Source: Chromera velia
Taxonomy: Eukaryota
Reading direction: 5' to 3'
DNA length: 46,383 nucleotides
Assembly: GCA_018398765.1 (NCBI GenBank)
Contig: JAHBMJ010000494.1
Coordinates: 1-46,383, forward strand
In this document: piece after piece, positions 6,040 to 46,383 of the stretch
How positions within the stretch are numbered: the stretch's first letter is position 1
How the letters are laid out: the number at the start of each line of letters is the position of its first letter
The notes under the pieces: model-generated
What the model saw: only the letters and a program-made list of their open reading frames with translations
What the model was told of the DNA's origin: nothing
Database searches by the model: none
Position numbers and translations under genes: made by a program

Positions 6040-6645
6040 AGCAGAAAGAACGAACTCTGGGAGGCAGTCAGACATACAAGAAGGCCGAACTTGGAAAGAC
6101 AGTCAGACCAGCAGGAAGAACAAAATTAGGAAGGCCATCGGGCAAGCAGGATGACTGAAATTAGGAGGCGTTAGGAGGAAACTTAGGCGGGAAGGAAGGC
6201 CGAAATAGAGAAGGCAATCAGGGAGGCAGGAAAGTCAAAATTAGGAAGGCAACCAGACAGGCAGGAAGGCTGAAATGGCGAAGTCAGTCAGGCAGATAGA
6301 AAAGCCAAAATTTGGAAAGCATTGAGGCAGACAGAAAGACCGAAATTTGGAGGGCAATCAGGCAGGCAAAAAGGCTGAAATTGGAAAACAGTCAGCTTAG
6401 CAGGAATGCAAAACTCTGGAAGGCAGTCAGGCAGGTAAGAAGGCCAAAATTAGGAAGGCAATCGGGCAGGCAGGAAGACCGAAATTGGGAGTGCGGCGAA
6501 AGCCGAAATTAAGAAGGCAATAGGGTGGGCGGAAAGGCTGAAATTGGGAAGGTATTTAGCTAGACAATGCCAGACAGAAAGGCCAAAATCTGGAGGGCAG
6601 TCAAACAAGCAAGAAGGGCAAAATTTCGGAGGCAGTCAGGCCGGT
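6040..6645. repeat. Purine-rich ~32 bp minisatellite (AGGCAGTCAGGCAGGCAGGAAGGCCGAAATTGG-like)
   Basis: Repeated GGCAATCAG/GGCAGTCAG ... GGCCGAAATT motifs at ~32 bp period. Confidence 0.8.
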
Positions 6646-7006
6646 AGAAAAAAACACAGGCTCGGCACGTAGGAGCGCTGCTCCCTTTCACAGTCTGAAG
6701 ACTGCGGCCTTAACGAAAATGCAAAGACCTACCTCTGGAGGAGTTGAAGAAGGAGTGAGACACAAAACAAGCATCTCTTGGAGGAGACCCACGACCTGCA
6801 AAGAGCAGAGGAGGGGGGCAGGGGTGAATAACACACGCAAAAGGAGATGACAGTTTTATACCTTACCGAGGGCAGACCAGTCAGTCATTCAGAAACCACA
6901 ATAGCCAGGTTGTAGCCACACAGGAACACTTACAGACATCGTACAAAGCCTTCTGCATACACCAAGAAGGCTCATCTCTGCAAACAAGATTTTTTCAATT
7001 CCTTTA

Positions 7007-7246
7007 CTGGGAGGGGGGGGTGGACCCTCTCGTAGGGGTACAAAACAACCGACTTTTATACCCCTGGTAGAGGGGGGGGGTCCGACCTGCTCTGTAGGTT
7101 TGCATCCAAAATGTGTCTAGGAAACACTCCTAAACACATTTTGGACATAAACCTGCAGAGCAGGACCTGGTCGGACCCCTCCCCTCTACCAGGAGTACAA
7201 AATTCGGTCGTTTTGTACCCCTATGAGAGGGTCCAGCCCCTCCTGT
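7007..7246. mobile_element. ~240 bp fold-back MITE (near whole-length palindrome)
   Basis: The left arm (GGACCCTCTCGTAGGGGTACAAAACAACCGA...CCAAAATGTGTCTAGGA) pairs with the right arm (TCCTAAACACATTTTGG...TCGGTCGTTTTGTACCCCTATGAGAGGGTCC). TA on both flanks. Confidence 0.8.
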
Positions 7247-10200
7247 TACTAGTTGAACGACATAAAACGAACTGACCTGATTGAGCGATCTAAACCAGTC
7301 TGGCAACCCTTTTAATTGTCGTACAACTCCTTTGCACCGAAGCAACCACTCCCACGAGCAACCAGAGGTGTTCAGCCAACACAGATACCGGAGGGGGACG
7401 AAACTCCCGAATCTGTAACCCCTCCAAAAATGAGGTTCTGGAACAACAAGCTGAATACGATTTTATTGTTGTTAAGCTTTCCAATACAATCCAATGGAAT
7501 GCTTGACAATGAGATTTTATGGATAGAGGCCCATTCTGTTGACCCGACTTTCTGACTGGAGGAAAACTTTCTGAAGACCTGACTGAGAATTTTTTAGATC
7601 GGCATTTTGATGGGTCAGCGCGCAGCCAAGTAATGCTTTTTGGCCTTCATGGCCGGCTAGACCCTGGCCCGTAACGCGTAGCTTGCCTTCCGGGGCCGTT
7701 ACATGATTGGTCGATCTAAAATCGGCTCCCAAAATCGGCTTTCCGTCGAATGTTTCAAGTCGATCAGAGCATGACCTAGTACTACCTCTCTCCTATCATA
7801 TACACTTGCTCTCCAGCGATGAAAGTAGGCTTTATCGAAAGCCCAGAGGATTGGTTTCTTTGCTTTTTCTTGGGTTTATGACGTTCACTCTACTGGTTGC
7901 CCTGAGAGGGCAATTTCGATCTTCCATCACGAAGGGCACGGCCCGTCTCCACGCAAGAGGGCCTACAAAGTTACCCCAGTAAAGCTTCCATTGAATCTTT
8001 TCCATGCGTACGCTCTAACAAGCTCTAGATGAGGAGTTGGAAAGGCTTTTTGGATGAGGGGACTAGCTCTGGGTGGCCAAAAGGTGAGCCATTTTATGAA
8101 TTTTTATATATCTGTGCTGCAGGTCAGACTGAGCCTTTCTCAGAGGACCGTTTATTGGTGCTTGGATTTCGTGAAAAAGCATTACTGCTGGTAATCTCGG
8201 GTGATCTGAAGTTATGAGAGTGAGGCGCAGCTCTTATTTGTATGAGAATTTGGAGGTAGGGCTCCTGGGTAGACTAAGACCCAGTGGCCAGTGCCGGGCC
8301 TCACCCAGAAAAAACAAGAACGCTATGATGACTGGTCGTGGGCAAGGCCCTCTGGCTAGAGGCCATGGATCGATTAGGCTTTCAGAAGCTAAGTATTTAC
8401 CTCTTGTACGGTCATAGTACTCAACATTTGTTTGGTTGAACTGCTTTTTGTGGGTGTCAAATCGGCAGATCTGTTTGTGGACATTGATTCTTACCTTTTA
8501 TGGGGGTTACCCGCTGTGTGCTCCCTCCTTATATCAGTGTGCGGATTCGGCGTATTCCATTAGAAGTAAAAGTTAGCTTGTTTATACATTACACTGCGTA
8601 TTGTCACATGCTTGCAGAGTTTGCAATCAGTCCCCGACATATCAATATACTATAACTCTTTCACCTCACTCACGTCCAACAATTTCTAACATACATACCA
8701 CAAACCCATTAAACCTTATCTTTAAAAGTTGTTCATACTTTCATACAGGTAAGAAACAATAAATAGAATCATTCTAAGTGCTTTAAAGACTTCGTTTTTT
8801 ATATATAAAATTTACTGTGATACATAGAAAATTAAAAGTCACTTTCTAGTATAACAGTTTCAATTGTTAGTACAGTTAGTTTTTCTGCTCCGGCAATTAT
8901 AGCCTGACTTCATTTCTTTCATTCTTTATGCAAGCAGCAGTATGACCGCCTCTTTTGCATCCTCTGCTCCGGTAGCAGCAGAACCGGATCACACATTCAT
9001 TCCTCAGTCTTCTGCACACTGCGTTCTTCTTGTTTCTGAGCATTCAATCCTTATACTCCCCTGACTACACGCATTCTGCTTGCCCTTGAGCACATTCTCG
9101 TCTTCTGTCACCATGCACTGCATTTTTCTTGCCCCAGTGAATGAGCACACTCTGTTTACATGCCAATACGCACACGATTATTACCGAGCCAGACAGTCTG
9201 AGTGAGAACCCTCATACTTCGGAGTATCTTCGGTCTTTGTGTCTCTTTTCACATGTTTTTATTGATGCTGCTTTACCTAAACGCATTCTGTTCTCGAGTT
9301 CCTCCACACACATTTTTTCTTCTATCGTGCATACCCTGTTTTGTCCCTCAATATCTAAGCCGTCCTCGTGAACGCATTTTGTAGTCTTTGGCCATATGAG
9401 TCGTCGAAGAATTTTTGGGATCAAAGCAAAGACTAGAGCAAAGAACTCAGGCCAATGCACCTATGGCAAGAACCCTCGCGCTTCATCCCTCTGCATTCTT
9501 TTCTTCTTGCACATGATGACGGGCAAAAATCCTTATCTGCATCTCTTTTTGCTTGCACCCAGATGAGGGCAAAGATCCCTCTCTGCAATCATTCCTTCTT
9601 ACAGACAACATCTCCTTCATTCTTTGGGAATCTTTGCTTCGGCAGCAGTACGCATACACCACTTTGACCCTCATTCTCCGCTCAGGCCTGATTTTATCTC
9701 TTTCACTCTCTACTCCGGTAGCAGTACGACTGCATCTCTTTCATTCCTTACCCAGTCAACAGCAGGACTGCATCTCTGTCACTCTTTACTCACGAGCAGC
9801 CTGACTGCATCTCTTTCTTAGATTAGATCTCTTTCACTCTCAGCCCAGGAGCAGCACGACTGCATCTTCCCTTCTCTGCTTAGGCAACCGTATGACTAAA
9901 TCTCTCTCACTCTCGACTCAGGCAGCAGCATATTGAATCTCTTGCACTCTTTGGTCAGGCAGCAGCATGCCTGCACCCCTCTCACCCTCTACTTACGGGC
10001 AGCTTGATTGTACCTCTTTGCCCAGTGCTGCCTAGGTAGCAGCACGACTGCATCTTTCCTTCTATGCTCAGGCAGCGGTATGACTGCACCTTTCTCTCTT
10101 TGCTCAGTAAATCTCTCTCACTCTCTGCTCAGACAGTAGCATGACTACAAATCTTACATTTTACCGTCAAGCAACAGCACATCGGCACTTGTTTCATTCT

Positions 10201-10870
10201 TCTATCAGGCAGCAGCATCCTTGCATCTCTCGCGTTCTTGTTGCAAGCAACACATCTCTTCTCCGTTATTCTTCACGCGGGCAACAGCATGACTGTACAC
10301 ATCTCTCACAGTTTTTTGTACAGGTAGCATATCTCTTGATCTTCTTTCATTCTCTGCTCCGGCACTGCCAGTAGCAATACCATGACTGCACCTCTGTCAC
10401 TCTCTGCTCTGGTAGCCATATGGCTATATATATCTCTTTCACTCTCTCCTCCGACAGCAGCATGACCGCATCTCTTTCATTCGATCTCCTTGGGCAACAG
10501 CAGGACCGTATCTCTTTTACTTTGAAATTCCACTCTGGCAGCTGCATAATTTTATCCCTTCCATTCTTTGCGTAAGCAGCAGTATGACCGCCTCTCTTGC
10601 ACCCTCTGTTTTATCAGCAGTAGGACTGTGCCTCTTTCACTTTCTGCTCCAGCAGCAGCATGACTTCATCTCTTCTATTCTTGTTTGTGTGGGTAGCAAC
10701 ATCATTATCATGATGACTGCACCTCTTTCATTTTCTGCTCCAACAGCAGCAGGACCGTGCCTCTTTCACTTTCTGCCCTAGTAGCAGCTTGACTTCATCT
10801 CTTCCATTCTTTTTTGCGCCAACAGCAGCATGACCGCCTCTCTTGCATCCTCTGCTCTGGTACTAGCAGA

Positions 10871-11377
10871 TAGGGAGGTGAAATGCTTTTAGCATGGGGG
10901 GNNNNNNNNGGGGGGGGGGGGGGCCGTGCTGCACGGCTTCGTCGCGCGGTAGCACGGCCCCTCCCCGTGCCGCAAAAAAAGGCTTCCGCACGGTACAGCC
11001 CTGCCAGGCTGTGCAGCGCGGCAGCAGAATTTTCTCTAGTATGTATTATGCTTTCTTAGCTCAGCCTTTGCGATATCAAGAGGATAAGTGCAGCTAAGCA
11101 TCAAGCCAAGCGCCACCAGACCTGTCTATAGCTAGAGGAACACAACTTGGAAGTTGAATGAAGTTGAGGCCAGAGGGGGGGGTCGTTGCCATTCCAAAAG
11201 GGGCAATTGTTTGTCTACAGTCCTTCTGGCTAGCTTTAATGGTCTACCGTGCGGCATGGCCCCCCTCTTGTACTACGAACCTGGACTGCGCTCCACGCGG
11301 CCCGGGGGGTGAGATCCCATATGGCTGGCAAGCCAGCCGTGCGAACCGGGACCCCCCCCCCCGATATTACCCCCCTA
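10871..11377. mobile_element. Non-autonomous hAT-like element (TAGGG...CCCTA), copy 2
   Basis: Same sequence and insertion site as 4866-6023 but without the 657-bp insert. Contains an N gap in a poly-G run (10902-10909). Confidence 0.65.
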
Positions 11378-11623
11378 TAGTAGCAGGACCGTGCCTCTTT
11401 CACTTTTTGCCCCAGCAGTAGCATGACTTCATCTCTTCCATTCTTCTTTGCACCAACAGCAGTATGACCGCCTCTCGTGCATCCTCTTCTCTGGCAGCAG
11501 CAGGACTGTGCCTCTTTCACTTTCTGCTCCAGCAATTATAGCCTGACTTCATCTCTTCCATTCTTTATGCAAGCAGCAGTATGACCGCCTCTCTTGCATC
11601 CTCTGCTCTGGCAGCAGTAGAAC

Positions 11624-23279: not shown

Positions 23280-25029
23280 CGCGGTACTGTTCAACCAAGT
23301 CCGGGTATGAGCAGTTATTCTCGTAACACCACTCAGGTTAAAGGTAACTAGCAAACTTAAAGCGGAACCAGGTGTTCCCCTTTCTGTCTGTTTTCTCTCT
23401 ACACACACGTTCCACTTCATATTTTTTACCTTCCTCAATTTTTTCCTCCCCCGCTTCCTCATTTACTTCCAACTTGACCCGTTTATTTGGGCCACTTGCC
23501 CCCATCACTTCTGCAACTGTCTGTCTTGCCTCTCTTTGACTGCCTGTTGAACTTCGTTCTGTCTTTCCTGCGGGTCTCGGGGAAGCAGTTGGCTCTCCCC
23601 GTGCCCGTTCTCGACCCCTCGCTCCCTCCTCTACCTTATCGCTCATTTCCGGGTCACGACTGTAGTACGGCTTGACTCTACACCTGCTCACAACCTTCAG
23701 CCGTTGGGCGCCTGGTCTTTTGAGAACCAGGGCGAAATTTAGCCTGACTTGCTCAACCCGATATGGCCCTTCCCATTTTGGGGCCAATTTCTCACTCACC
23801 CCCTTGTGAGCATCTGTCCTCAACCATACATACTGTTTTTCTTTGTACTCGATTGGTCCTTACGGTGCTTTCCCTCCCCCTTTCTGCTGCTGTTTTTGTA
23901 GGATTCTTATCATTTTTGACTCTGCTGCCTGTTGCCAGAACTGCTACTGTAGGCGGGATTCTTTCTGGACTTTACCAAGGAGGTCAATGTAATCCTCGGC
24001 AAAGACCCCGGGCTGGTCTTCTGTCAGGTTTGTCAAGAGACGGGATGGCTTGTTTGGGTGGCAGCCATAGAGAAAGAAAAACGGGGACATGCCCATGCCT
24101 TCATGGGTTTGGGTATTAAAAATGTATTGGGCGAAGGGGCAGTATAGCGGCCAGTCTTGCTGGTGTTTGTGGATGTAGGCTGATAGAATTTCCTTCAGCC
24201 ATCTGTGGAACTGTTCGAGCCGGGCATTCGTTTGGGGGTTATATGCGGTCGAGACAATACGTCGGGTATTGCACAAATCACTAGACAAATCATAGATTGC
24301 CTGAATGATTGGATCAAGGAAGTTGCTTCCCTGGTCACTTAAAAGTTTTAAAGGTGTCTCCCACCTTAAAATGATTCTTTCAATGAGGGCTCTGGCTACA
24401 GTTGGGCCCTTCGCATCTGTGAGTGCTACTATTTCCGTCCATCAACTTGTGCAGTCCATTGCAGTGAGGATCCACTTAAACCGTCTGCCCTCTATCTGAT
24501 TGGACAGTACAAAAGGGCCCACCAGATCGACTACAAACCTCTGGAGTGGTTCAATAAGGGTTTCTTGGATTATGAATGTGTCTCTTTCTGCTTTCCGTTT
24601 CCTCTCTTGGCATATTTTGCAGGTCTTTACGAACCTTTTGATGTCTGCAAAGACATTCCCCCAATACAGGTCAGCCGTCAGATCTCTAATCATCTTCTAT
24701 ATGCTTGCATGGCCAGCGACCAGACAGGTGTGATAGTTGTGTGGTGCTTCTCTCTGCAATGCCTTAGGGACAACCAGGAGGAAACGCGTTCCCTTCTTGT
24801 GTTCCGAGGCTGGGGGTAGCATTCGTAAAAGGAGGTCCCGGTCTATTACATATATGCTGGCTTGTACATCAAAACGGAGACTGTGCTCTGCCTTCTCTTT
24901 CTGAACCCCCCCCTTTTTGGTGAGATACTGAATAAGCGGTTTCAGTTCTTCATCCTCCTTCTGTTTTTCTATGAATTGCTCCCTCTTCCACATTTTGCAG
25001 ATCGTTTCTTCGGCGGGAAGGGTGGACAC
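23280..25029 (-). pseudogene. Integrase (HHCC, core, GPY/F) plus C-terminal chromodomain, fragmented
   Basis: HNYHTCLVAGH...CKICQ; VVDLVGPF; STAYNPQTNARLEQFH; KLAPKWEGPYRV; YEVERVCREKTDRKGNTWFRFKFASYL*PEW. Confidence 0.92.
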
Positions 25030-25185
25030 TGGGGCTACTACAATTTCATCTTTTGTATCGGAATCCGGACGGACAGGGGGCCAGCCCTTATGGATAAAGG
25101 GCTCTCGGGTCAGTCCATCTGCATCTAGATGGCTTCTTCCCGGGCAGTGCTCTACTGTATAGTTGTAGATACTCAGCTTCAGGCT

Positions 25186-26292
25186 CTATCGATGCAGTCT
25201 CGCATTCATATCCTTGAAGGAGTCTAGATAGAGGAGAGCTTTATGATCGGTGACTACTTTGAAGAGAATACCGTATAAGTACTCTCGGTAGTGGTATACC
25301 CTCCATACGACTGCATACGCCTCTATCTCTGATATCGACCACCGAGCCTCAACGGTGGTGAGCCGGCGGCTTGCATACGAAATAACCCTTGCCCTCCCTT
25401 CTTTGTCCTCTTGCAAGAGGATAGCTGCCACCGCAGCTAGGCTGGCATCCGTGTGAAGAATGAAAGGCTTGGTGAAATCGGGGTAAACAAGCATATCTGC
25501 TGTGGTCAGTGCCTGTTTGAGTGCTCTAAAGGCTTCCTCTTGGGGTGCCTGCCACACGAAGGGGGTTCCCTTCCGAGTTAGCTCCAAAAGTGGAGCAGCG
25601 GTGCCGCTAAAATTGGGAACGAACGATCGATAGTATCCGCACACCTCCATGAAGCTTTTGATCTCTTTCACGTTTTTTGGGGCTCTTACTTCTGTGATGG
25701 CTTTCACTTTTTCTTCACAGGGGCGCAGGCCTTCTTGAGAGACCTGGAAGCCAAGGTATTGGAGCGAGGTTTGACCAAACCGGCATTTTTGGAAGGCTAG
25801 CCTCACATTGGCTTCAGTCAGCCTCTCCAGTATTCTTTTGAGATCGGATAAATGCTCTTCCCAACTGCTGCTGCTGCTGTATAAAATATCGTCCACATAT
25901 ACATTCGCGCAGGGAAGGTCACCGACCAGGCGGTCGATCGTCCTTTGGAACTTAGACGGACTGATCGAGAGGCCCATCGGGAGACTCTTATACTGGAATT
26001 GCCCCCACTTAATATAAAAGGCAAGCTTTGGTCGGTCTATCAGCCGCGCTACTAACTGAAAGAAAGCAGAAGGGAGATCAAGGAGTGAAAACAGTTTTTT
26101 CCCTCTCAGGGAGCTTAGGATCTTTTTGATGTCCCCCAGGGGCCAGTGGTCCCATGCTATCACCTTGTTGAGGGCTCGGAAGTCTACTGTGAGCCTGAGC
26201 TTCCCCGAGGATTTCCGTACGAGACAGACAGGTGCCCCCCAGGGAGAACGAGCAGGCTCAATGATGTCCTGTTTAATCAGTTCATTTATCAA
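25186..26292 (-). pseudogene. Gypsy reverse transcriptase / RNase H
   Basis: SPWGAPVCLV, LRLTVDFRALN, LPMGL, YVDD, FILHTDAS, VVTDHKAL. Flanked by stops within pol. Confidence 0.96.
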
Positions 26293-26433
26293 CTCCTTTG
26301 CCTCCCCTTCCAGCGCGTAAGGGATCGGTCGGGGCCGAACGTAGATCGGCTTTGCATCCCCTGTATCTATTTGGATTTCGGGGCCTTTGATTTTTCTAAT
26401 ATCCGTGGGGGTGGGGGCTAAACAAGCAAACTC

Positions 26434-27525
26434 TTATAAAAACATCCTCAGCTCCCCTTTTTGTTCTTGTGTGAGCTCCCCACTCTTCTGAACGGCTTCT
26501 TCGATGCTTTTCCTGGCTTGTTCTGTTTCAAATTGTGCAGTTTGGGTCGGGGAGCAGGCATGGAGGGGTATTGTTTCGGGATCGCCGTCTTCAACGACTT
26601 CGGTTACTAGGGCCGAGACGTTGGGAAGGTCAGGAGGTGTGGCTATTGATGTCGCAGGGTGGCTGGAAAGGGATCGTTCAGCGGACCCCCCTCTTTCCTT
26701 GCTCACTTCCTGTTTTCCTTTCTCATCAGCTTCTGGCAGGGTCATGCAAACTGTGACAACTGCCACAAGCATGAAAGGTTTCACCGTGCATTCATGGGTT
26801 ATGCAATTGCAGAGTGCTACTCGAACCGAGTGGTTTTCGACTATTGATACCGTTTCTTGCATTTCTATTCCTGCAGGTAGCAACTCCCTGCGAGGAACAG
26901 TCAGGGGCGACACGCACACCATGGTCCCGTCGGGCATGGGAGTTCCGTCGGGGATCCTAATGTTCAAATAAGAGAGAGTGAGGGGGTATAGGACCTGAGA
27001 TGAGGGAAGAGAGAGAGAGAAAGGAAGAAAACTTCTTTCTTTTTCCAGCACAGTCATAGGGGTCAGAGTAACAGGCAAAGGAGGCAAAGAGCCTGGCGTG
27101 ACCCCCGTCTCCTTGAGAAATAGGCAGTCTGGTTTGAATCCAACCGCCTCAGTATGGGTTCGACAGAAGTCAATCCCCAGAATGCATGCATGTCGTGTAT
27201 TCCTCATGACATAGAAGGTCTGTTTCCTTACCTTGTCCATAAAAAGACTCAACGTAATCACCCCCACATTCTCCAAACATTCCCCTCCTTCATCTTTCAA
27301 CTTCATGGGGGATGGATATATTGTCAAACGGTAAGACCCTCCATGCATAGCATTCAACCTCAACAACACTTCTTCCCCCAGTGTCGACACATCACTCCCT
27401 GTGTCAATCAGAGCTGGGATCATGAACGTTTTTTCCAGGTCAATGCACATTCCTATCCTACTGGCCGCAGGGTGGAGATTGATGTGGGTGACAAGTGCTT
27501 CTCTCTGCGGTACAACTGGGGCCAT
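26434..27525 (-). pseudogene. Retropepsin aspartic protease plus long spacer
   Basis: ALIDTGSDVS and CILGIDF motifs. Confidence 0.9.
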
Positions 27526-27820
27526 TCCGGGCGCCTGACTCTGCCCCTCGAAGGCAGGCGCCTAGGCAGGCGCATCAGTGTTTTTGCTGGCCCAAGGGAG
27601 TTCGGTTGGCTACTGAGGCTATGACTCCGGATGGAGGCAACGCTCTCAAGGGGGGTCTGTCCATAACTCTCGGGAGTGACATAGGGACACCAGGGGTCCC
27701 TCTTCGGGGCATGACCTGGTGTGGTTGGCCTGAGGCTCCTCTTGCAGCTAGGGGTGCAACCCAAGGCTCCTGTTGGATAGGTCGGCCCCGGCCCGCAGGC
27801 GGCCCTGAGGGCTCAAATCG

Positions 27821-28156
27821 TCACCCCTGGGGTCTGTTCCAGGGCCTTTTCTGATTGTTACGTGTCCACCCGTTCTGCTGAGGGAGTGTAAACTCCGAAG
27901 AGTGGGGGTCGGGAAGCTCACGTCTAGGAGGGGGCCCACCCCTGAACTGAGTACCTTCCCATCGTCCTCCAGACCTAAAAGCATCCCTGCTGTAGGCATC
28001 TTGCCCCCATCTAATTCTAATTGGTGGGTTGGGGCAAGTTGCTTTGATATGTCCTGTCTGTTTACACCGGTGACAGGTGGTTGAAGCAGGAACAGGGCAC
28101 CCCTCTTCTGTGTGTGGTCTCGTTCCTGCACACCGCTCACACTGCACTTCTGGCAT
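27821..28156 (-). pseudogene. Gag nucleocapsid with two zinc knuckles
   Basis: CERCAGTRPHTEEGC and CHRCKQTGHIKATC. Confidence 0.88.
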
Positions 28157-28284
28157 TGTTGAGAACCCTTCGCATCATCTCTTCTGGGGGCATCATCAAC
28201 TATTCTTCCTTACTTTGCGACTGGACATTTGACTCTTCTCCTTCTACTGCTGAAATCCGAAGACGTTTGATGGGTCGGTCTCCC

Positions 28285-28815
28285 TCACTTACCCCCCCTA
28301 TTTCTTGGTTTCGTTTCTTTTTCACTACGTCCTCCCACTTCCTCAGCTACACCTGCATCTAGCTCTTCAAAAGTGTCATACGTTTTGCTTTCTATTTGAA
28401 TGCAGACCTGATCATCCTCCAGGCCCTCAATAAAGGCTGCTAGTGCGGTCGGGTCGTCGGTGCCTTGGTCTGCAATCCCGCAATTTTCCTCAAAATGTCG
28501 AACATACTCAGTAGAGCTCTCCCCAAACTTCTGAGCGATCTGCAACAGCTCTCTCTTCTTGTGCTCTGCTTCTCTCTCATCTATGCCATATTTTTTCATG
28601 AACAGCATTTTTAGGTCTTTATGAGTGGCACACTTGGCTATCCTTTCAGGGGGTAACATCTCAAACCATTCTTTTGTAGGTCCTTTGAGGGTAGTTGGGA
28701 GGTAAATGTTTTTGAGGTTTGTGAATGTCCACCCGAGGCTCTCATACAGTCTCATCAACGAGTTCCAAAAACCCCAAGCCTTCACGTGGTCTCCGTCAAA
28801 CGATGGTGAGTCCAT
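28285..28815 (-). pseudogene. Gag capsid (retrotransposon gag)
   Basis: PSFDGD, LKGPTKEWF, LKMLFMKKY, QKFGESSTEYVRHF, FIEGL. Confidence 0.88.
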
Positions 28816-29110
28816 CTTTACTTTGGGGAGGTTAAAGGGGGGCAGGGATGGAACTATATCGGCGCCTGGGGTCTGCAGCGCAATGGCACTCTAGATAATG
28901 CCATGTCAACAGACATGGGTTCTATGCAGCGAAGCTTCAGTACCCCCATATCGGATCTTGTCAGAACAATCCCCATGTTGTGCAATTCAGACAACACCTC
29001 TGGAGAGGCCTCTCGTGATAGGATCTCTTCTCCATCCTCCCCTAAGTCTCCTACCTCTAGACCCTGTATCCTACTCCTTCTATGCATCGGATCTGTACAT
29101 CTATTTCCTG

Positions 29111-30393
29111 CATAGTTGCACAAGTACACTGTACTACACTGTACTACACTGTACTGTACTGTACTACTGTACTATAATATCTACACTGTACTGTACTACT
29201 GTACTAGACCTTAAAAAAAAATTTCTTCTATTTCTAGTGTCCTAAGGGGTCTCTTAACCTACATTAATACTGTATCAATGTGTGCTAAGTTATCATATGG
29301 TAATGATGAATTACAGTAACTTAGAGAAAGCTTCCAAAAGAATTGAAACTATATGTTATACATATATATATATAATTATATATACAAAATATAAATTCAT
29401 ATACCATCATTACAACAGTCCTAGCAACAGTCTCAGCAGTCTGCCCCCCCCCTCCCTCCCTGTCCTTTCTGTCAGACTCAGAAAAGAGCCTCTCTAAACT
29501 CTAGTCCGATGCTTTTCAGGTATTCAACTACCATCTCTCCATCCAACTCATCATCGAATGCCTCTACTAACTCATTAGACGCAAGGTCGAATCCCTGCAG
29601 GCCCAAAATCTGTGTCTCTCTTCTATGATGCCCCGGGCCGGCATTCCTCTGATGAACCCTCTGGAGGTGGAGGTTGGCGGAGGTTGGCATGTGTGGTGAC
29701 CAGCAAGTCCTAGTGCGGCTAGGTGAGACGGTTTCTCTTCTCAGAGTAAACCTGGCTGTAGAGAGAGAACCTCCGCTCCGAGACTCCCGTTAGCGGCCTG
29801 AAAGACCTCCGTGGTAAGGGCGGCGTTCTTGGAAGCTGCTTCCACAAGGTTGTCCCGGCACCACCAGGAGAGGTAACCGTTGTCCACCTTGTTGTCTGAC
29901 GATATACAGTTAGGCTGAAGAGGGTGTGTTGCAGCCTGTACTGCTTTGCACCACTTCAACATTATCTACAAGGATATCGTTACCTTGGATTCCCTCCACC
30001 CCTCGACTTCAACATACAAAACCTCGTCTAAAGACCCGAGGGATAGAACGGAAACATTGTATTCTCGTGGTTGAGAGGCTTCACTTGAAGCCATTTTTTT
30101 CTCTAATTTATGTTTTAGAATGCAAACTTTAACTATTTACTATTTACTATCTTAAATTACTATAAAAACATCATGAAAACTCACTAAAACACTAGTAAAA
30201 AGTTACTAAAACTTAGCTTATAAACATGCTAAACATGCTAAAACTTAGCTTAAAAGCTTATAAAAAGGTAGTGGGACGAGTGGCGGGCGGCCCCCCCAAT
30301 TTAGTGAGGCAGGGCGGGGCGGGCCGCTCGAATTGTACTGTACTGTACTATACTAGTTTTGCTTCTACACTGTACTGTACTAGTGCAACTATG
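29111..30393. mobile_element. Non-autonomous 8-bp-TSD DNA transposon (P- or hAT-like, CATAG termini)
   Basis: 18-bp TIRs CATAGTTGCAC(A/T)AGTACA, perfect TSD ATTTCCTG (29103-29110, 30394-30401), and CTGTA subterminal repeats. Excision restores the minus-strand frame LVGPGN|RCTDP. Confidence 0.92.
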
Positions 30394-30745
30394 ATTTCCT
30401 GGCCCTACTAGTTGTTCTACCCTCTCTTCCCCTACTTCCTCTGCCTGCACCTCTTGGACCATAGGGTTGGCGCATGCCGGGGCCCGCCGGGTTCCTTTTT
30501 GCCCCCCCCCGCCCATATGTAGGCGGCGCTTCGCCGCCGAAAACTCAACTGAACCAACCAAGTAGCCTCCAGAGCTGAAAGTTGGGGGATTTCTCACCCA
30601 TCCCACTCTTATCAATTCTATGGAACAGAATTTGCAGACTCAACCTATAGCCTCTGCACCAGCAGTTTCCTGTTTGGCAATGTGTATAGACTTTTATTTC
30701 TGAGGTGTTGTTCACTGTTGTTTGAGCTCAGTTCCAGACTGAGCC

Positions 30746-32109
30746 ATGTTGCAAGCCACGATGCCACCGCTCCCACCGCCCAAATCTTCGAAGGGGCGTA
30801 AAGGAGTGGGAGGGAGACCCACAAGAGCAGAAGCAGAAGGTCTGAAGGACAGATATGTACCCTTAGGAGAGTACCGTACCAACCTTGTCTCAACCATGTG
30901 CGGTTCGTCTCCTGCATTGGAAAGGCCCCACCACATAGCAGGGCTAGAGGCCATCAAGGCCTATAGGGACAGAGAAATGCCGCCTTTCACTGCAGTGCGG
31001 ACCGAACAGCAACAGCAGGAGCGAGATGCCCACCAGCAAGAGCAGCATAAAAGGAAGAGACGGATGAGTGAGCAGCCGGGGGTGTATTGGGGGCAGGTTG
31101 TAAAGCGATTTGCATCTGATGCCCCGTCTTGGCCCCTTCATGACAAGTACAAAGAGGCCGCAGATGCGCTTTCCTCTGCAGCTCCCTTGCCTCCTATTCC
31201 CGAGGAGGACCCCGACGCTGCTAACGGCAGCTACGAGAACGGCCGCCGGAATCGGGCCAACACGATTGAGAAGCTCGACAGTTGTCGGGACGCCCCGTCC
31301 TTCCATGGAGCGCCCATCCTTGACCCCCGAGACTATGAGAGGTCAGGGAAGGGTGCAGAAAAATTGGCCGACAAGACGACCGCAGTGGTTGGGCTAGTGG
31401 ATGACCTGTATGGGCTGAAAGGCCTGCCCGCAGAAGAGCGTGCGGAAGGCCTCACATCGGCCTTTGCTTCGATCGCGTGCAAGGCCTCCTCCATCAAAGA
31501 AATGGAATTGGCCGAGAAGATTGCAGAGAACACACAGCAGGGGGGGTATCGTTTCGTAGATACAGAGAGGGAAAATAGAGCAGATATGCCCTTTCACATC
31601 AAAAAGAGACTTGAGAGAGTGAGGGGGTTGAACAAGATGTGCAAGATTAAGAGCAAGCAGGCGAAAAGTCTGAATTTCTGGCTCCACAAGAAATGGAAGA
31701 GAACTCCAGCCGATTGGCTCGACTATTGTCTGCGCAATGGCCTCATCCGGACAAAGTTGGGGAGGCTGAGAAGGTTTCTGGGGTTCGAGGTTGTCCCAGA
31801 CCCTAAGGATGTGTTTGGGCCCCTGTGTGACTTGCAAAAGAAGCTTCGTGAGCAGGGGTTCTTCCGACCGTGCTCCAAGTTGGTTGGGGAGGTGACAAAA
31901 AAATTGAAGGAGAAAAACAAGGAGGGAAGGGGGGAATATTTGCTGCATTCACAGTCAATCCTGCAGACTACATACGGCTTCTGATGGAAGATGAGTGGGG
32001 GGGGGAATACTTCTCTACCAACGCGGACCTCTCAGAAGAAGGAGTCATCGGCCAAGAGTGGGTCGTCTCCATCGATGGCTCCTCTGGGTCTGGCCTAGCT
32101 GACGGTTGG

Positions 32110-32166
<57 letters not shown>

Positions 32167-32313
32167 GTATGTATGTGTATGTGTGTGTGTGCATGTGTGT
32201 CTGTGTGTGTGTGTGTGTGTGTATGTGTGTTTGTGTTTCTGTTTCCAGTTTGTGTTACCCTCGCAACCGCTCGCAACTTGACCCCTGCACAAAATTGTGT
32301 GTGTGTGTGTGTA

Positions 32314-32348
<35 letters not shown>

Positions 32349-33412
32349 GTGCGGCAGAATTCATCTGCATTCGCCGTTTTCGCACGACCATGTGGAGAAG
32401 TGCCTGCGTGTGTCAGGAATGCAGGCAAGGGAGGAGGTCCTCTGCGAGTGAGGCTGAGCTGAATACAGAAGAGGGGGACGAAATTCCCTCCCCCTGTGAG
32501 GAAGAGGAGGAAGCGAAAAGGAAAGAGGGGGAGGAGACAAAGAAAACCAAGATCCAGCCCCTTTGCCGTCATGAGTGCAGCTGCCCTCTCGAGCCAAACG
32601 AGGAGGGCAAGCAGTGTGGACGGAAAGTCCTGTACGAGATGAACTCTCTTTGGAGGGACAGCATCCTAATCAACATAGACATACTGATTCCGGTAGCCAA
32701 TCCGGAGCTCTCGAAGAAGCCAACTGCCCCAAAGTTCGTCTGGCCAAAGAAGAGTCTGCAGGGGCAGACTGTTGTGAAGCTGTCCCTTCAGCACAAAGAC
32801 ATGTTCTGCATATGCCACATGACGGACACAAAAGAGAGGATTATGCAGATATCGTTGTTTCAGTGCCTGCATATTCTTCGTATGACAACAGATTTGGATA
32901 TGAAAGGGACAGGAAACTACGCAGCTGCGTTGTGGCAGTTGAAAGATCTTTTTCTGCAGATTTATAAACATACGGGGGTAAAGTGGAATGAGACCCTCCA
33001 CAGGCTTGAGCATGCCTGGTATTGGCTGAGAACGAGGGGGTCTTATGGGAGGGTCTTCAATATGCAGGCTCATGAAGCCTTCAACCGGGTCATTAAGGAG
33101 GCCTTTTCATCAAAAGGCGCCTCAAGTCATGGTACGTTTGGCACAAAGGCCCCAACGGGAAAGTGGGAGGGAAGAGACCTGGACATGGGCCGTCGGCTAG
33201 TGACTGGCCATCTCTTGCAGACCCTGTCGGCTTCCAGTACCGCCGACAGAAGGACAGAGGCGCGGACCGCTTCCCGCCTTGAACTAATGCTTGCACCAGG
33301 TGAGAAGGAAGACCTCTCGTCAGAGAGTGAAGCTGATTCCGATGCCGATTTAGACATATCTGTTGAGCTTGATTTCGTTGAAGACGTTCAGGACCAAGAT
33401 GAAAACATGTAA
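30746..33412 (+). pseudogene. RAG1/Transib/Chapaev-like DDE transposase (frameshifted, microsatellite-filled intron region 32105-32357)
   Basis: VFGPLCDL (31811; cf. RAG1 IFQPLHAL). WVVSIDGSSG (D at 32074; cf. Transib KWGCDGSSG). CICH (32807). LHRLEH-x8-GSYG-x-QAHEAFNRVIK (E at 33074; cf. RAG1 HKTLAH...GSIG...EGNESGNK). 1-nt frameshift near the G run 31929-31934. The second catalytic Asp was not located. Confidence 0.7.
32111..32351. repeat. (CT)n and (GT)n microsatellites in putative intron(s)
   Basis: Donor GTTGGT at 32105; candidate acceptors TTCCAG (32248) and GGCAG (32357). Confidence 0.85.
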
Positions 33413-33760
33413 AAAAAAATTAATAGCATATAAATTTTAAGCATTAAATTTTAAGTCATTTGAACTCTACTTTAAATTAAGTAGATTCAGGTGACGTATA
33501 TTTGCGTAGCATAGCATAGGATTGATATTAACCGTCAACTATATTTTTAACTAGAATTTATAAATCAATAAATAAAGTATACATAAAGTATATAAACTAT
33601 AATTTAAATGAAATACATTAACCGTCAACTATATTTCAAACTAGAATTTCTCAGTTTAAATTTTATACTTCGATCAAAAACAATTTAAATTATAAGTATA
33701 CTTTAAGCATAAATTAAAATTTAAAATAGAATTAAATGAACGGTTTTTTGTTTAAAATCA
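33413..33760. other. AT-rich spacer between the convergent genes (likely shared 3' UTR/polyadenylation region)
   Basis: Abrupt AT enrichment after the stop at 33412, AATAAA at ~33572, and a ~33-bp direct repeat ATTAACCGTCAACTATATTT..AACTAGAATTT at ~33527 and ~33617. Confidence 0.55.
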
Positions 33761-33872
33761 AACCTCAAACCTCAATGACTCAAACATCAAAATCAAAGTA
33801 GACTTTATCCTGTCCGTCATCGGCCGAATCCTCTGCGGGCGCCGAAGGCTGAAAAGAGAGTGGCGGCCCACT

Positions 33873-35400
33873 TCAAGCCACCTGAAGGACACCTGCTCCT
33901 GCTGCAGCCACTGCTGCAGGTGCTGGTGCAGCAGCAGAAGAAGAAGAAAAGGCCACAAACGTCACCCACTCCATTGCTGCAGGGTTGTTTGGGATATCAT
34001 ACACCAGGTGAAGGGATGCCGACCCCACCCTGCTGCTGCTGAACAACATGTAAATGGAAGGACAAAGGAGCCGTCTTGCCACCCCCCCCTCCACTCCGAA
34101 CCATCGGTTAAAGACGGCATCGACCTGCAACCCGGGCAGCACACCCTGGATCGCCTTTCCCCTCAGACGGACAACGCAGGGGCGCTCCATGGCTGTCCTA
34201 AATTGGACGGCCTCCATCTTAAGGAGGCGCTCCACTGCCTTCCACCTCTTTGCATCATTTTGGGGCTGCCTTTTCTTCAGCTTTCTCTTCTTCCCCCCTC
34301 CTCCCTCCGCTCCTTCTTCCTCCAAGGTCACCTCCTCCTCGGGGTTGTAGTTCGTTGTCAGTAAGGCACGCATCCTCTCGTCCATCACGTCGAATACGGG
34401 ATCCACTCCACAAATCACCTCTGCACTCATAGAGGCGCACATACACCATCAAGTCATTCATCCCTCCATCCATCACCAGGTAGGCAGGCAGGCAAACAGC
34501 CCGGCAGACAGGCAGGCAGACAAGGCAGGCAGACAAAGTAGGCAGGCAAGGTAGGCAGGCAAGGCAGACAGGCAAGGCAGGCAGGCAGGCAGGCAAGCCT
34601 GGCAAGGCAAGGCAGGCAGGCAGGCAGGCAAGGCACGCAAGGCAGGCAGGCGGGCAGCTGGGCAGAGAGGCAGGCAGGCAAGTACAGGCAGGCAGGTAGG
34701 GTCCACCTATCTGTTCATGCACTCATGCATCCATGCACCTATTCTTCCGTTTCCCCGGTCCAAACACCCCTCCACAGTGTGACCAGCACTGCTTCATTGG
34801 GGGAGAAAGATGTATCGAATCACCTTTCGGAATGTCGTCCTGCTCGGCTGACGCATCTACTTCCCCCAGTCCCAGAACGACCCTCCCCCATACGTAGTGA
34901 AGTCTGAGGAACCCCGTCAGAATGTCCATCTGGTAAGTAGCGAGCGAGAGGACTCGGTACTTCAACGCGAAGTACTTGAGGCCGTTCGACACGCACAATC
35001 TGTAGGACAACCAATTCAATGAATCATGAAATTCATTGAATTCGTCCTTGCACAAGTCAAAAAAGGCCCAGCCCCTCGCAACCCAGTGCTCTGGGATTTC
35101 TTTTGGGGCCTCTCTGGCCCCGTACTCAGGCCTCCGCATTGTCGACAAGAGCAGAGTTTCGAACAAAATAGAGAAAGAGTTGGTCATTTTCGATTGGAGC
35201 GAGTCAAACAATTTAAGGACTCCGTCTTTCTTCTCTTTTGGGGGGGCCGACTTTCCTTCCAACGCTAAAATTAGGGCCGTGATGGGTCCCTCATCCAGAA
35301 ATATGCTTGTGCACTGCCTCACTGCTGCGATGGCTGCCTCCACACTTTCAGCAGCCATGGAGACGGAAGGGAGCGGACACGAACTTTTTTTAAAAAACAA
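33873..35400 (-). CDS. Second, convergent gene of the transposon, unknown protein (probably two exons, ~35358-34739 and ~34420-33873)
   Basis: 225-aa and 189-aa ORFs separated by a (CCTG)n tract, starting at the inner edge of the right TIR, with basic NLS-like KKRKLKKR. Exact splice junction and frame unresolved, so it may be a pseudogene. Confidence 0.55.
34478..34700. repeat. (GGCA)n degenerate microsatellite (putative intron)
   Basis: GGCA/AGGCA repeats, with a minus-strand AG|GTGCAT donor at 34738. Confidence 0.85.
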
Positions 35401-35600
35401 ACTGGCAAACAGGAAACTGCTGGTGCACTAGCTATAGTTAAAATCTGGAGATTCTGTTCCATAGAATTGATGGGAGTGGGATAGGTAAGAAATCCCCCAA
35501 CTTTCAGCTCTGGAGGCCACTTGGTTGGTTCAGTCGAGTTTTCGGCGGCGAAGCGCTGCTTTGGGGGGGCAAAAAAGAACCCGGCGGGTCCCGGCATGCG

Positions 35601-37568: not shown

Positions 37569-38026
37569 CATGCCGGGGGCGAGGGGGGTGTTTTTTGTCC
37601 CCCTAAAGCGGCGTATTTCCGCAACAAACTCGTTTTCATAATTGGTAAGGAGTTAGAAGCTGAAACTTTGTGTAAGAAGACGTTGTGACGATAGAAAAAG
37701 AACTATGGAACAGATTTTTTATATCATTTCTAGAAACATAGGCTGTCATACAAATTTTTTGATTTTGAGGCCATTTTTTAACGGTTTTGAATAGTAAGAA
37801 AAACGGTATGAAACTTACAAAATTTGTATGGCAGCCTATATGTTTCTAGAAATGATATAAAAAATCTGTTTCATAGTTCTTTTTCTATTGTTACAACGTC
37901 TTCTTACATAAAGTTTCAGCTTTTAACTCCTTACAAATTATGAGAACGAGTTTTTTGCAGAAAAACGCCGGTCTCCTATGCAGAGAGGGGGACAAAAGGG
38001 ACTCCACTCCCGGGCTTTCCGGCATA
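37569..38026. mobile_element. MITE related to the RAG1-like transposon
   Basis: ~190-205 bp inverted arms; CG-CATGCCGG...CCGGCATA-CG; shares spaced motifs with the TIRs of 30473-35598. Confidence 0.85.
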
Positions 38027-44000: not shown

Positions 44001-45631
44001 GAGAGAATAGAGAAGTCGCACTGTTCTCATGGAGGTAATAACAGACCTTTATGATCTAAGCCCCTAATAGCAGCACCAAGACCTGCAGGAGCTCCTCATA
44101 GTAGCATACTCCCAGCAGTTCCGTAACGCCACCCCCGCATAGAAGCAGAAAACCTTATAGAAAATAGGGTATTGACACAAGGCCCCTCCAGAACTCGTCT
44201 CATTTGATGATAAATGGATACCGCAGACTGTGTTTCTCAATACAGATGTGGGCATTCGTGAGCTCGATTGGCCTTCCGTCTGAGCACAAAGGCCTGAGGG
44301 GCAGGTTGTGTTTGAGGTGTACTGTGAACAGGACTCGGGGGAAAAAGAAGTCATCGCTCTTCTCCCAGATTCCACCAGCCTATTTGTATGAGACTTCGGT
44401 CTCCCCGTGGAGGGCCCCGGATCGGGTGCTCTGTTCTCTCTCTCGCGTCTGATGAGAACAGAAGCATGAAAAGACAGAAGCATGAAAGGTCTGATGATAC
44501 GTCTGTTCCAAGTGGCAATGGCTGCCCTTCCAAACGACGTCTACGGTCTTAATAACCAACTGTGTCCGAGCGGAGTGATGTACAAGAAGGGGGGTGAATC
44601 AGGAATGCTCTTTCCGATAGAGTTTCTTTTTAGTCCTCTAAAACTCCACCTCTTCTATATGAATGAGTGGGACGAGTATTTCCACGACCTCCCAAGGGTC
44701 TCAAATTCCTCCCCTGACCCTGACCGCATCAACTCAGGCCCATCTACCGTCCTTTGCTTCCCCAACAGCCAGACCCTTGCCGGCTCTACAGAGAGTCGGT
44801 GGGCGTTATTTGCCTCGACAGTCTACACAGAGCCAAGACCGTTGATGACAGAGGTCGAAAAGCTTGATGACCTGATTTCAGTCTCAGGCCGTGTCGGAGG
44901 AGCCTTGCCCGACAAAGCAAACCGACCCATCATGTGTGGGATAGACGAACCTGGTTGTGACAAATTCCTGAAACCATACTATGAGTGTGGTGCAGCTCAT
45001 GCCGCACGGCATAGGCTATGCGGGCCGGCACAGCCTATGCCAGCCAAAATCGCTGGCGCAGCCTTTTGTAATAGTATGAATAGGCTCTGCCGTTCTGTTG
45101 GCTTGGACTAACGGAAAGCCCCTATGAAACACCACTATAGCAATGTCTTACTGTATCCTTTTAGAGTGTATGTCACCCTTTTTTGGTCTTCTAAGCCTTT
45201 CCAGAAGCTGAGATTGATCATATTCAAGAATTGACAGATTTTTTTGACTGTTGATTGGGAGATGGGCTGAAGAGCTGACCTCTCTGTCACTTCTAAAAGG
45301 GCTCGCAGCCCATTCTGTCCACTTCAAAGACTTTGTAGTGCTTTTCCCTGTCGAGTGGGAAAGGGTTGCAGTGGTGTTTCTGGCTGTGGGTGAACCGTTG
45401 GGGTCCTTGGTCCTCGTTTTAGAGATTCGTGTGTCTGGACTTTCAGCAGTGAGCGATGTGTATATTCCTCCGGGTGCCTTGGAGGTTGTTCCGCTTGCCT
45501 TACCTTCTCTCACTGGCTTGTCTAATCTTAGTTGTATGCAGTTGCTTTGGTGGAATGACTCTCGGGGGGCTGGAAGGGGGCAGGGGTCATTCGTCTCGCT
45601 TCGTAGTGGATGTATTTTTTGGGGGATATAG
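38058..45631 (+). pseudogene. Degraded, partly intron-containing coding region(s) of unknown identity
   Basis: Chain of + strand ORF fragments (coiled-coil-like 38058-38471, acidic 42882-43496, 209-aa 44482-45111), short GT-AG intron-like segments near 38.4-39.6 kb, and an in-frame 18-aa repeat. No domain recognised. Confidence 0.4.
42473..42634 (+). repeat. 54-bp (18-aa) tandem repeat x3
   Basis: EGGEENAVVESEEGGMIA / EGREENAAVRSEEGSVIA / EKGEESATVESKEESVIA. Confidence 0.8.
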
Positions 45632-46157
45632 ATGTGTGCAGCCTTCTAAATGCCTTGGAGACCGTTTTATTCTCATTATTTCCACTGACCAGTGTTCCGG
45701 ATCCTTGCTATATGCAGTTGCTTTGGTAGAATAGCTTTCTGAGAGGTCAGAAAGAGGTAGAGTGGGGCATGCGTATGCCTCAGCTCACGGAAGGGTGCTC
45801 CTGCGACTCCCTGGATGGGCCATGTTTTCCCTTAGAGGGGCCGGGAGCACTTGTTTTGTCTTGTTCTCTCTTTTTCCTCTCTCTGCATCACTCTGCAGTG
45901 TTCATGGCCTGCATTGTTTCTTCTGCTGCCCCCCTTTTCCCCTTTATTTCTTTCTTTCCACCCCCCTCCTTCACTTTTTTATTTTTTTTCATGCCCTCCT
46001 CCTTTCAACCCTGTCTCCCTCCCTCCATCCGTCCCTCCCGCCCTCTCACCCTTCCCCCCTTCCTTCCTTCTGTCATCCTGCCTCTTGATTCCCCTTCTGC
46101 TTCCCCTCTGCCTTTCCCTTCCTCACCCCCCCTCCTTTCTAGCCCCCTCCCCTCTCT

Positions 46158-46383
46158 CCCTCCCTCACCTCCCTCCCTCACCTCCCTCCCTCACCTCCCT
46201 CCCTCACCTCCCTCCCTCACCTCCCTCCCTCACCTCCCTCCCTCACCTCCCTCCCTCACCTCCCTCCCTCACCTCCCTCCCTCACCTCCCTCCCTCACCT
46301 CCCTCCCTCACCTCCCTCCCTCACCTCCCTCCCTCACCTCCCTCCCTCACCTCCCTCCCTCACCTCCCTCCCTCACCTCCCTC
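46158..46383. repeat. Perfect 13-bp tandem repeat (CCCTCACCTCCCT)n
   Basis: About 17 identical copies running off the window end. Confidence 0.95.

What the first reader, a model, noticed from the sequence alone, without database searches (positions are those of the whole stretch)
30473..35598. ProtoRAG-like architecture: RAG1/Transib-like transposase plus a convergent partner gene between long TIRs
Seen: a 5.1-kb unit bounded by ~205-bp TIRs. Each TIR directly precedes an inward-pointing coding region, and the two meet at an AT-rich spacer. The + gene carries, in RAG1/Transib order, VFGPLCDL, SIDGSSG, CICH, HRLEH and EAFN. Known: these resemble the RAG1 pre-RNaseH motif, first catalytic Asp, Zn-binding HxxxH and catalytic Glu of CMC/Transib transposases. 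ProtoRAG has RAG1L and RAG2L convergent between TIRs, whereas Transib is single-gene. Inference: this may be an undescribed two-gene lineage of RAG1-related transposons in a probably non-animal eukaryote.
Basis: partly seen in the sequence, partly recalled or inferred. Interest (0 to 1): 0.92.

Follow-up and report, generated by a model that had tools for sequence, protein, structure and literature searches.

The report
RAG1-like algal transposon with unequal ends
This is a broken copy of a multi-copy jumping gene of the alga Chromera velia whose enzyme carries active-site motifs spaced like those of the antibody-gene recombinase RAG1 and whose two ends differ by exactly 11 bases, so it likely pairs a long end with a short one as RAG does, but its second gene is probably not a RAG2.

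Summary
The element is real: 5.1 kb, ~205-bp TIRs, CG|CATG…CATG|CG ends and two convergent genes; the partner's intron is spliced out in RNA-type contigs. All protein relatives found with a source name are from Chromera velia. This copy is dead: a frameshift, a stop in the partner, and loss of the exon with the second catalytic Asp. Other copies supply that exon. Their motifs match mouse RAG1 in order and in two spacings (Asp to CxxC 19; His to Glu 25), but profile and fold searches gave no significant hit. The partner shows no kelch or PHD sign, so 'ProtoRAG-like' holds for layout only. New here: the ends are asymmetric by 11 bp (33 vs 44 between conserved blocks), and a MITE 2 kb away, about 55% identical in its ends, has the same asymmetry and block spacing. 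Best reading: a new two-gene lineage of the CMCT clade (EnSpm/Mirage/Chapaev/Transib) with a CG target. Earlier scan notes report other CMCT-like elements in protists and unequal ends in a Chapaev family, but not this family. Repbase could not be checked.

The parts
30471..30472 (.). CG, left copy of the presumed 2-bp target site duplication
   Evidence: other junctions in X1, X2, X10 and the MITE also keep CG; no empty site seen
30473..30685 (+). Left TIR, the long end (transposase side); blocks CATGCCGG, TTTTGCCCC, AAACTC, AGCTGAAA, CTATGGAACAGA at 1, 25, 69, 101, 146
30509..30519 (+). 11 bases present in the long end and absent from the short end
   Evidence: short-type contigs show 11 gaps here in X1, X2, X5
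30761..32104 (+). Transposase exon 1: N-terminus with GGRP, pre-RNase H region, first catalytic Asp (SIDG, 32068-32079); one T missing behind 31938 in this copy
32105..32350 (+). Microsatellite-rich intron remnant; the RNase H exon with the second Asp and CxxC and the piece with the H795-like motif are absent here (deletion or assembly collapse between TG repeats)
32351..33412 (+). Rest of the last transposase exon: AAEF, Cys-rich acidic insertion (32405-32626), HRLEH (32999-33013), catalytic Glu in HEAFN (33071-33085), acidic tail, TAA
33413..33779 (.). AT-rich spacer between the two stop codons, with a 33-bp direct repeat; bins 33472-33733 not covered by RNA-type contigs, covered in DNA run X2
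33780..34420 (-). Partner exon 2; premature TGA at 33873-33875 where other copies have Trp
34421..34823 (-). Partner intron, GT-AG, 403 nt, GGCA-repeat rich
   Evidence: spliced out in X5, X6, X10; no such joint listed for X2, where the tool dropped one joint at repeats
34824..35358 (-). Partner exon 1; full-length product 390 aa in P0016, no family found
35397..35598 (-). Right TIR, the short end (partner side); same blocks at 1, 25, 58, 90, 135
35599..35600 (.). CG, right copy of the presumed target site duplication
37569..38026 (.). 458-bp MITE of a related family, flanked by CG on both sides, with one short and one long end and the same block spacing

Best explanation
This is a decayed copy of a multi-copy two-gene DNA transposon of Chromera velia that likely belongs to the CMCT clade (EnSpm, Mirage, Chapaev, Transib, RAG1), likely moves by cut-and-paste into CG dinucleotides, and likely pairs its long end with its short end with help from a second protein that is probably not RAG2. 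Shown: TIRs, CG on both flanks, two genes covered by RNA-type contigs, several related loci, the DDE and C/H motifs (spread over different copies), and the 33/44-bp end asymmetry shared with a divergent MITE. Inferred: the transposase folds as an RNase H DDE enzyme (Asp338 and Asp429 of P0008, Glu701 of P0005) with a zinc site from CxxC and HxxxH; it cuts by nick and hairpin as RAG and Transib do (known for those enzymes, PMC10629977); CG is duplicated by a 2-bp stagger; the fixed array of subterminal blocks are protein-binding sites, and one extra helical turn lets an asymmetric complex hold two unlike ends; the partner acts as an accessory end-binding or regulatory factor, as TnpA does for En/Spm (recalled); the TIRs also carry the promoters of both genes. 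This copy cannot make an active enzyme.
For: Motifs against mouse RAG1 rows read in the supplement of PMC7204232: ESCDG / VSIDG; ADESDHETL / NWQENVNTI; FRGTGYD…CTLC / FHGTAD…CGNC (Asp to first Cys 19 aa in both); SIDALHCDIGNAAEF / PDLLHLAMRAAEF; HKTLAH…GSIG…ESGN / HRLEH…GSYG…EAFN (first His to Glu 25 aa in both). First to second Asp 91 aa here, 108 in RAG1. Three strict patterns hit 0 of 20,000 shuffles each; loose forms hit about 3% and 0.2%; the first-Asp pattern about 2-3% (patterns were written after seeing both proteins). ESM Atlas lists a RAG1 cluster for the last exon, rank 22 of 30, score 0.92, a lead only. AF2 places strand-strand-helix-strand-strand just before the second Asp (low confidence). 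CA..TG termini and a 2-bp duplication fit the CMCT definition (PMC12730594). Nine transposase models at 8 loci, 5 with a partner model beside them by gene number. Junctions with other flanks begin at 30471 and 35600. End architecture; three-block pattern hits 4 times in the window, 0 in 100 shuffles.
Against: No statistically significant link to RAG1, Transib or any transposase: Pfam none, PDB sequences none in 7 searches, 1.84 billion representatives gave 4 hits, all C. velia. No single sequence in hand holds all motifs; they come from P0008, P0003 and P0005. RNA-type contigs of X5/X6 are about 55 codons shorter in the middle than the gene models imply. No empty site was seen, so CG could be part of the ends. 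The MITE's long end has 5 further bases near the tip, so tip-to-block distance is not conserved there (16 against 11). The asymmetry rests on two families, one full copy each, plus contig pieces. Orientation and TIRs at the other loci were not seen. Nothing tests the partner's role.
Confidence: 0.72

Rival explanations
1. A true RAGL (ProtoRAG-type) transposon whose second gene is a very divergent RAG2L.
For: Convergent layout as in ProtoRAG; partner of 390 aa, near RAG2 core size (recalled); RAG1-like spacing; 11-bp asymmetry; RAGL exists in a protist (PMC9435367).
Against: No kelch or PHD family; 6 Cys and 4 His scattered, none after residue 316, GG at 3 places only; predicted structure mostly helical with 4 strands (pLDDT 33); Atlas leads are HECT domains, not propellers; termini CAT, duplication 2 bp.
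Confidence: 0.04
2. A single-enzyme CMCT/Transib-like element in which the second gene is cargo and the 11-bp asymmetry is an inherited accident without function.
For: CMCT elements capture genes such as TET/JBP (PMC12730594); 3 of 8 loci have no partner model listed; the MITE could simply inherit its ends from a related autonomous element; no partner was found for the second family P0019.
Against: Sequence between the blocks has drifted to about 55% identity while the spacings 33/44, 32 and 45 are exact in all four ends; the partner is spliced in RNA-type contigs of two studies and has no host relative in the one search made (proteins of 311-2000 aa).
Confidence: 0.18
3. A DDE transposon of another clan (hAT, P, Kolobok, MULE-like), or one with CGCATG termini and no duplication; the RAG1 resemblance comes from motif picking.
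For: No significant profile or fold hit; the patterns were post hoc; a DxLH motif also typifies P-like enzymes (recalled); invariant CG could be terminal.
Against: Five motifs in RAG1 order with two exact spacings; CxxC plus HxxxH before the Glu is the CMCT signature (PMC12730594); the Atlas lead is independent of my motif choice.
Confidence: 0.06

Closest known systems
CMCT clade (EnSpm/CACTA, Mirage, Chapaev, Transib, Plavaka, ESTA, Lanisha; PMC12730594, passages and supplement searches)
   Same: CA..TG termini, 2-5-bp duplication, D-D-E with C(2)C and H(3-4)H between second Asp and Glu, a third conserved His, extra genes inside the TIRs
   Different: CG dinucleotide flanks (no paper found), alveolate host, ~205-bp multi-block asymmetric TIRs, Cys-rich insertion, no detectable sequence similarity
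ESTA (fungal, PMC12730594)
   Same: Dinucleotide duplication, RAG1-like transposase seen only by remote comparison, second gene
   Different: ESTA duplicates TA, the one consensus seen starts with CAC, is about 12 kb and carries TET/JBP; relation untested
Transib, subgroup I (PMC1131882 sections 7 and 9; PMC9435367 whole text)
   Same: RAG1-like motif order, GRP near the N-terminus, unequal TIRs
   Different: Transib has a CACAATG heptamer, 5-bp duplication (labile per bioRxiv 10.64898/2026.08.26.747230 section 20), one gene, 206-214 aa from second Asp to Glu; here about 335 by the gene models
ProtoRAG / RAGL, including Aureococcus AanRAGL (PMC9435367; PMC10629977 and PMC7204232 passages; PMC4411706 passages)
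   Same: Two genes between TIRs, convergent as in ProtoRAG, 12/23-like length difference between ends, RAG1-like spacings
   Different: No kelch/PHD partner, no CAC heptamer, no 5-bp duplication, the conserved block at 25 is T-rich on the strand where RSS nonamers are A-rich, acidic tail instead of a Cys/His C-terminal tail

Membership tests
CMCT clade | D-D-E triad with C(2)C and H(3-4)H between second Asp and Glu | tested here: met
   Motifs in P0008 and P0005, third His in P0003; not all in one sequence, and the second Asp and CxxC are absent from this copy
CMCT clade | 5'-CA..TG-3' termini | tested here: met
   CATG at 30473 and 35595-35598, if CG is taken as target
CMCT clade | 2-5-bp target site duplication | tested here: inconclusive
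   CG on both flanks of element and MITE and at other junctions; no empty site
CMCT clade | Significant homology or shared RNase H fold with CMCT transposases | tested here: inconclusive
   Pfam, PDB, representatives: no hit; AF2 pLDDT 36.8, Foldseek none, VIA best Z 5.4 on helices only; Atlas RAG1 lead 0.92
CMCT clade | [quoted passage not shown] | not tested
RAGL / ProtoRAG | RAG2L with six-bladed kelch propeller | tested here: inconclusive
   Leans against: no Pfam hit, mostly helical low-confidence model, Foldseek none, Atlas HECT leads
RAGL / ProtoRAG | RAG2L C-terminal PHD (absent in BbeRAG2L per PMC7204232) | tested here: not met
   No Cys after residue 260 of 390
RAGL / ProtoRAG | CAC heptamer termini and 5-bp duplication | tested here: not met
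   CATGCCG termini; flanks share only CG
RAGL / ProtoRAG | Two linked genes inside TIRs, unequal spacers | tested here: met
Transib | CAC termini, heptamer-spacer-nonamer TIR, 5-bp duplication | tested here: not met
   these traits are reported as labile, so this lowers but does not exclude a Transib origin
Transib | Single gene; second Asp to Glu 206-214 aa | tested here: not met
   Two genes; about 335 aa by adding the pieces (about 280 if the shorter RNA form is the true one)
Any described Repbase family | Sequence identity to a deposited consensus | not testable with these tools
   No Repbase search is offered

The most novel reading that the evidence does not exclude
An alveolate lineage of RAG1-like transposases that has, independently of RAG, both a 12/23-like one-helical-turn difference between its two ends and a dedicated partner protein of a different fold encoded convergently in the same element, and that targets CG dinucleotides. 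It would be a second natural solution to the RAG1-RAG2 design and a test of whether paired unequal ends are ancestral in the whole clade.
Probability: 0.25. Interest if true: 0.85.

Novelty: new variant of a known kind. Interest (0 to 1): 0.62.

Why it matters
The origin of the 12/23 rule and of the two-protein RAG design is argued from Transib and RAGL elements with CAC ends. A distant relative in an alveolate with different end sequences, a different partner and still an exact 11-bp asymmetry would suggest that unequal-end pairing is older and broader than the heptamer-nonamer signal, and makes that testable with short/long substrates. It would also add a CG-targeting lineage to the CMCT clade, and it identifies at least 16 'uncharacterized' C. 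velia gene models (9 transposase, 7 partner) as transposon parts. If the asymmetry and partner prove dispensable, it is one more divergent CMCT family.

Tried and rejected
No whole genome is held for this window, so copies could not be collected. Pfam: nothing at the curated cut-offs for any transposase or partner sequence. PDB sequence searches: no hit under E 0.1 in 7 searches. AF2 models were poor (partner pLDDT 33.1; P0008 36.8); Foldseek found nothing at E 0.001; VIA gave best Z 5.4 on generic helices, and RAG1 or Transib were not listed, which excludes nothing. No relatives in metagenome contigs or viral contigs. A degenerate scan for a recalled Transib motif gave 0 viral and 14 prokaryote matches, all 14 in short or unrelated frames. 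Partner against transposase profile: no similarity (probability 0.3%). HECT lead for the partner (0.89, below the tool's 0.9 line) not adopted: no Cys near the C-terminus. No run on record as RNA; X5, X6 and X10 are treated as RNA because they splice the partner intron. Contig depth in X2 (about 180-240 on the main element contigs, 29 on the unique right flank) fits roughly 8 copies, but the tool warns that it is no copy number. Rejected: CICH as zinc motif; 32357 as acceptor; ATG 30746 as start. Literature: no paper with Chromera and Transib, none with a CG target site duplication phrase; searches listed nothing on this family (listings only). No Chromera, Vitrella or Cvel in the supplement of PMC9435367; no TIR, CACTA or Transib term in 12 of 16 supplement files of PMC4501334. 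PMC6872938 and PMC3093488 are not held. Long cells and the CMCT tree in the supplement of PMC12730594 were cut, and figures are not held, so a Chromera entry there cannot be fully excluded.
Full report
1. What is there. The element spans 30473-35598. Its TIRs align over 213 columns at 84%. Both ends read CATG and both are flanked by CG. Contigs from other insertions leave the sequence at the same points, before 30471 in X1 and behind 35600 in X2 and X10, so the CG is constant. No empty site was seen. I read CG as a 2-bp target duplication because that gives the CA..TG termini typical of the CMCT clade (PMC12730594, passages); this is inference.

2. Host and copies. Protein searches returned Chromera velia gene models at about 84-95% identity, plus two unnamed JGI/IMG partner proteins. 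P0013 is letter for letter part of this window's spliced partner. Nine transposase models fall on 8 loci if Cvel_12500 and 12501 are one locus. Five of the 8 have a partner model within two gene numbers (7979/7980, 14658/14657, 24138/24136, 15947/15946, 13851/13850); none is listed for 3375, 12500/12501 or 34178. Of 7 named partner models, 5 are these, one is this window's, and Cvel_20085 has no transposase found. Gene numbers are a proxy: orientation and TIRs at those loci were not seen. A profile search of 1.84 billion representatives gave 4 hits, all C. velia; one, P0019, is a second family, 35% identical over 215 aa.

3. This copy is dead. One T is missing behind 31938 relative to contigs of X1, X2, X5 and X6. 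The partner has TGA at 33873-33875 where other copies have Trp. Of the 44 listed places where the DNA run X2 differs from the window, 40 are C-to-T changes in the window (the tool lists only the best-supported places). Most important, the middle of the transposase gene is absent. P0007 and P0008 carry a 133-aa piece after the exon-1 donor, and P0003 and P0005 carry a 42-aa piece that runs straight into AAEF at 32351. Neither is in the window. An X2 contig runs on 165 letters upstream of 32359, near the 136 expected for that piece plus an overlap into the intron. CICH is RMCH or RICH in 6 of 6 models that cover it.

4. The transposase. With those pieces the motifs line up with mouse RAG1 as printed in Additional file 7 of PMC7204232 (rows seen): VSIDG with ESCDG (D600); ENVNTI with ESDHETL; FHGTAD…CGNC with FRGTGYD…CTLC, 19 aa from Asp to first Cys in both; PDLLHLAMRAAEF with SIDALHCDIGNAAEF (H795); HRLEH…GSYG…EAFN with HKTLAH…GSIG…ESGN, 25 aa from first His to Glu in both. 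First to second Asp is 91 aa against 108. CxxC to the third His is about 67 aa if the pieces abut, against 65. An acidic, Cys-rich insertion of about 80 aa follows and is conserved in P0019. Strict patterns hit 0 of 20,000 shuffles; loose ones 3% and 0.2%. The patterns were written after seeing both proteins, so these numbers overstate the case. The only independent support is an ESM Atlas RAG1 cluster at rank 22 of 30, score 0.92, at a recognition value the tool calls weak. Against: Pfam, PDB sequence and representative searches found no transposase, and the AF2 model was too poor for a fold test. No alignment score or tree against RAG1 or Transib was obtained, so placement inside the clade is open.

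5. The partner. It has two exons; the 403-nt GT-AG intron is spliced out in X5, X6 and X10 (two studies) and no such joint is listed for X2. Full length is 390 aa (P0016). It has no Pfam or PDB match, a mostly helical low-confidence model, a basic KKRKLKKR stretch that could be a nuclear signal (recalled motif type), no Cys after residue 260 and few GG pairs. RAG2L is defined by a six-bladed kelch domain, usually with a PHD (PMC7204232, passages). The evidence leans clearly against RAG2L, though the fold test itself is inconclusive. RNA-type contigs cover both genes, start within or reach the tip of the TIRs, and leave the AT-rich spacer uncovered.

6. The ends. The left TIR has 11 more bases than the right between a T-run/C-run block at position 25 and AAACTC: 44 against 33. 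A 458-bp MITE at 37569-38026, also CG-flanked, has ends only about 55% identical to the element's, yet shows the same 33 and 44, the same 32 and 45 bp to the next two blocks, and in its short end the same absolute positions 25, 58, 90, 135. The three-block pattern occurs 4 times in the window and 0 times in 100 shuffles (pattern taken from these ends). Short-type contigs with exactly 11 gaps occur in X1, X2 and X5, and in X5 a short end is continuous with the partner gene of another copy. Against: the MITE's long end has 5 more bases near the tip and ends in CATA; only two full elements were seen. Eleven bases is the 12/23 difference; unequal TIRs are known in some Transib families (PMC1131882, section 9), in subgroup I Transib and AanRAGL (PMC9435367, whole text) and in RAGL-A and -B (PMC10629977, section 15). 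An earlier scan note on a Chapaev family (e1-9549352) had put this idea before me; I checked it only on this DNA.

7. How it likely works. A RAG1-like DDE enzyme binds the block arrays, pairs a long with a short end, cuts and inserts at CG with a 2-bp stagger. The partner likely assists at the ends or regulates the element. Non-autonomous MITEs use the same geometry. Steps shown and inferred are separated in Best explanation.

8. One unexplained result. The X5/X6 contig has 369 letters, in frame, where gene models imply about 536. The shortfall, about 55 codons, equals the stretch from Gly426 to Thr480 that holds the second Asp and CxxC, and a cut inside that Gly codon would fit to within one codon. 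The letters were not shown. It may be a spliced inactive form, a deleted copy, or a gene-model error.

9. Comparison and novelty. It works like Transib/RAG by motif and end geometry, fits the CMCT clade on the features that could be tested, and fails RAGL and canonical Transib on termini, duplication length and partner. TIR and duplication traits are reported as labile within Transib (bioRxiv 10.64898/2026.08.26.747230, abstract and section 20), so a divergent Transib branch is possible. Two-gene RAGL elements (PMC4411706, passages) and a protist RAGL are published, and ESTA already shows a dinucleotide duplication with a RAG1-like enzyme. Lanisha is named but not described in the passages seen (PMC8245031). 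The chromerid genome paper gives only class-level statements in the passages seen (PMC4501334). I found no description of this family, no look-alike in earlier scan notes, and could not check Repbase.

10. Verdict. New variant of a known kind; interest 0.62. The conserved 11-bp asymmetry is the most testable new point.

Noticed in passing
window 37569-38026: MITE of a related family; its flanks form a short palindrome around the CG (ATGAT-CG-ATCAT)
   Followed up: yes
window 32102-32359 against runs X5/X6: RNA-type contig is in frame but about 55 codons shorter than the gene models imply; may lack the second Asp and CxxC
   Followed up: partly
window 31959-33102 and 32702-32997: Contigs that skip 1142 nt (X5, X6) and 294 nt (X10) without GT-AG ends: probably internally deleted copies
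   Followed up: no
window 30473-35598: Copy-specific changes are mostly C-to-T, in all contexts with CpA and CpG enriched (18 and 11 of 40); suggests methylation-linked or RIP-like decay in Chromera
   Followed up: partly
P0019 (Cvel_15884): Second, more divergent family member that keeps the Cys cluster but lacks HxxxH and the catalytic Glu (LYLLES, QAHKAFNR): decayed or domesticated
   Followed up: partly
window 23338-28890 (minus strand): Decayed LTR retrotransposon with gag, reverse transcriptase and RNase H matches; a high-depth repeat at 30200-30393 ends 80 bp before the element and may be its LTR
   Followed up: partly
window 1-1900, 2300-5000, 8900-11600, 6045-6650: Arrays of degenerate 38-bp and 35-bp repeats and a 1-kb duplication (4024-5038 / 10033-11051, 92%)
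   Followed up: no
window 7012-7244: Small palindromic MITE-like element with G-rich ends, unrelated to the element's TIRs
   Followed up: no
window 46080-46383: 13-bp tandem repeat CTCCCTCCCTCAC at the window end
   Followed up: no
window 44470-45111: 213-aa open frame with a Cys/His-rich end and no Pfam match
   Followed up: no
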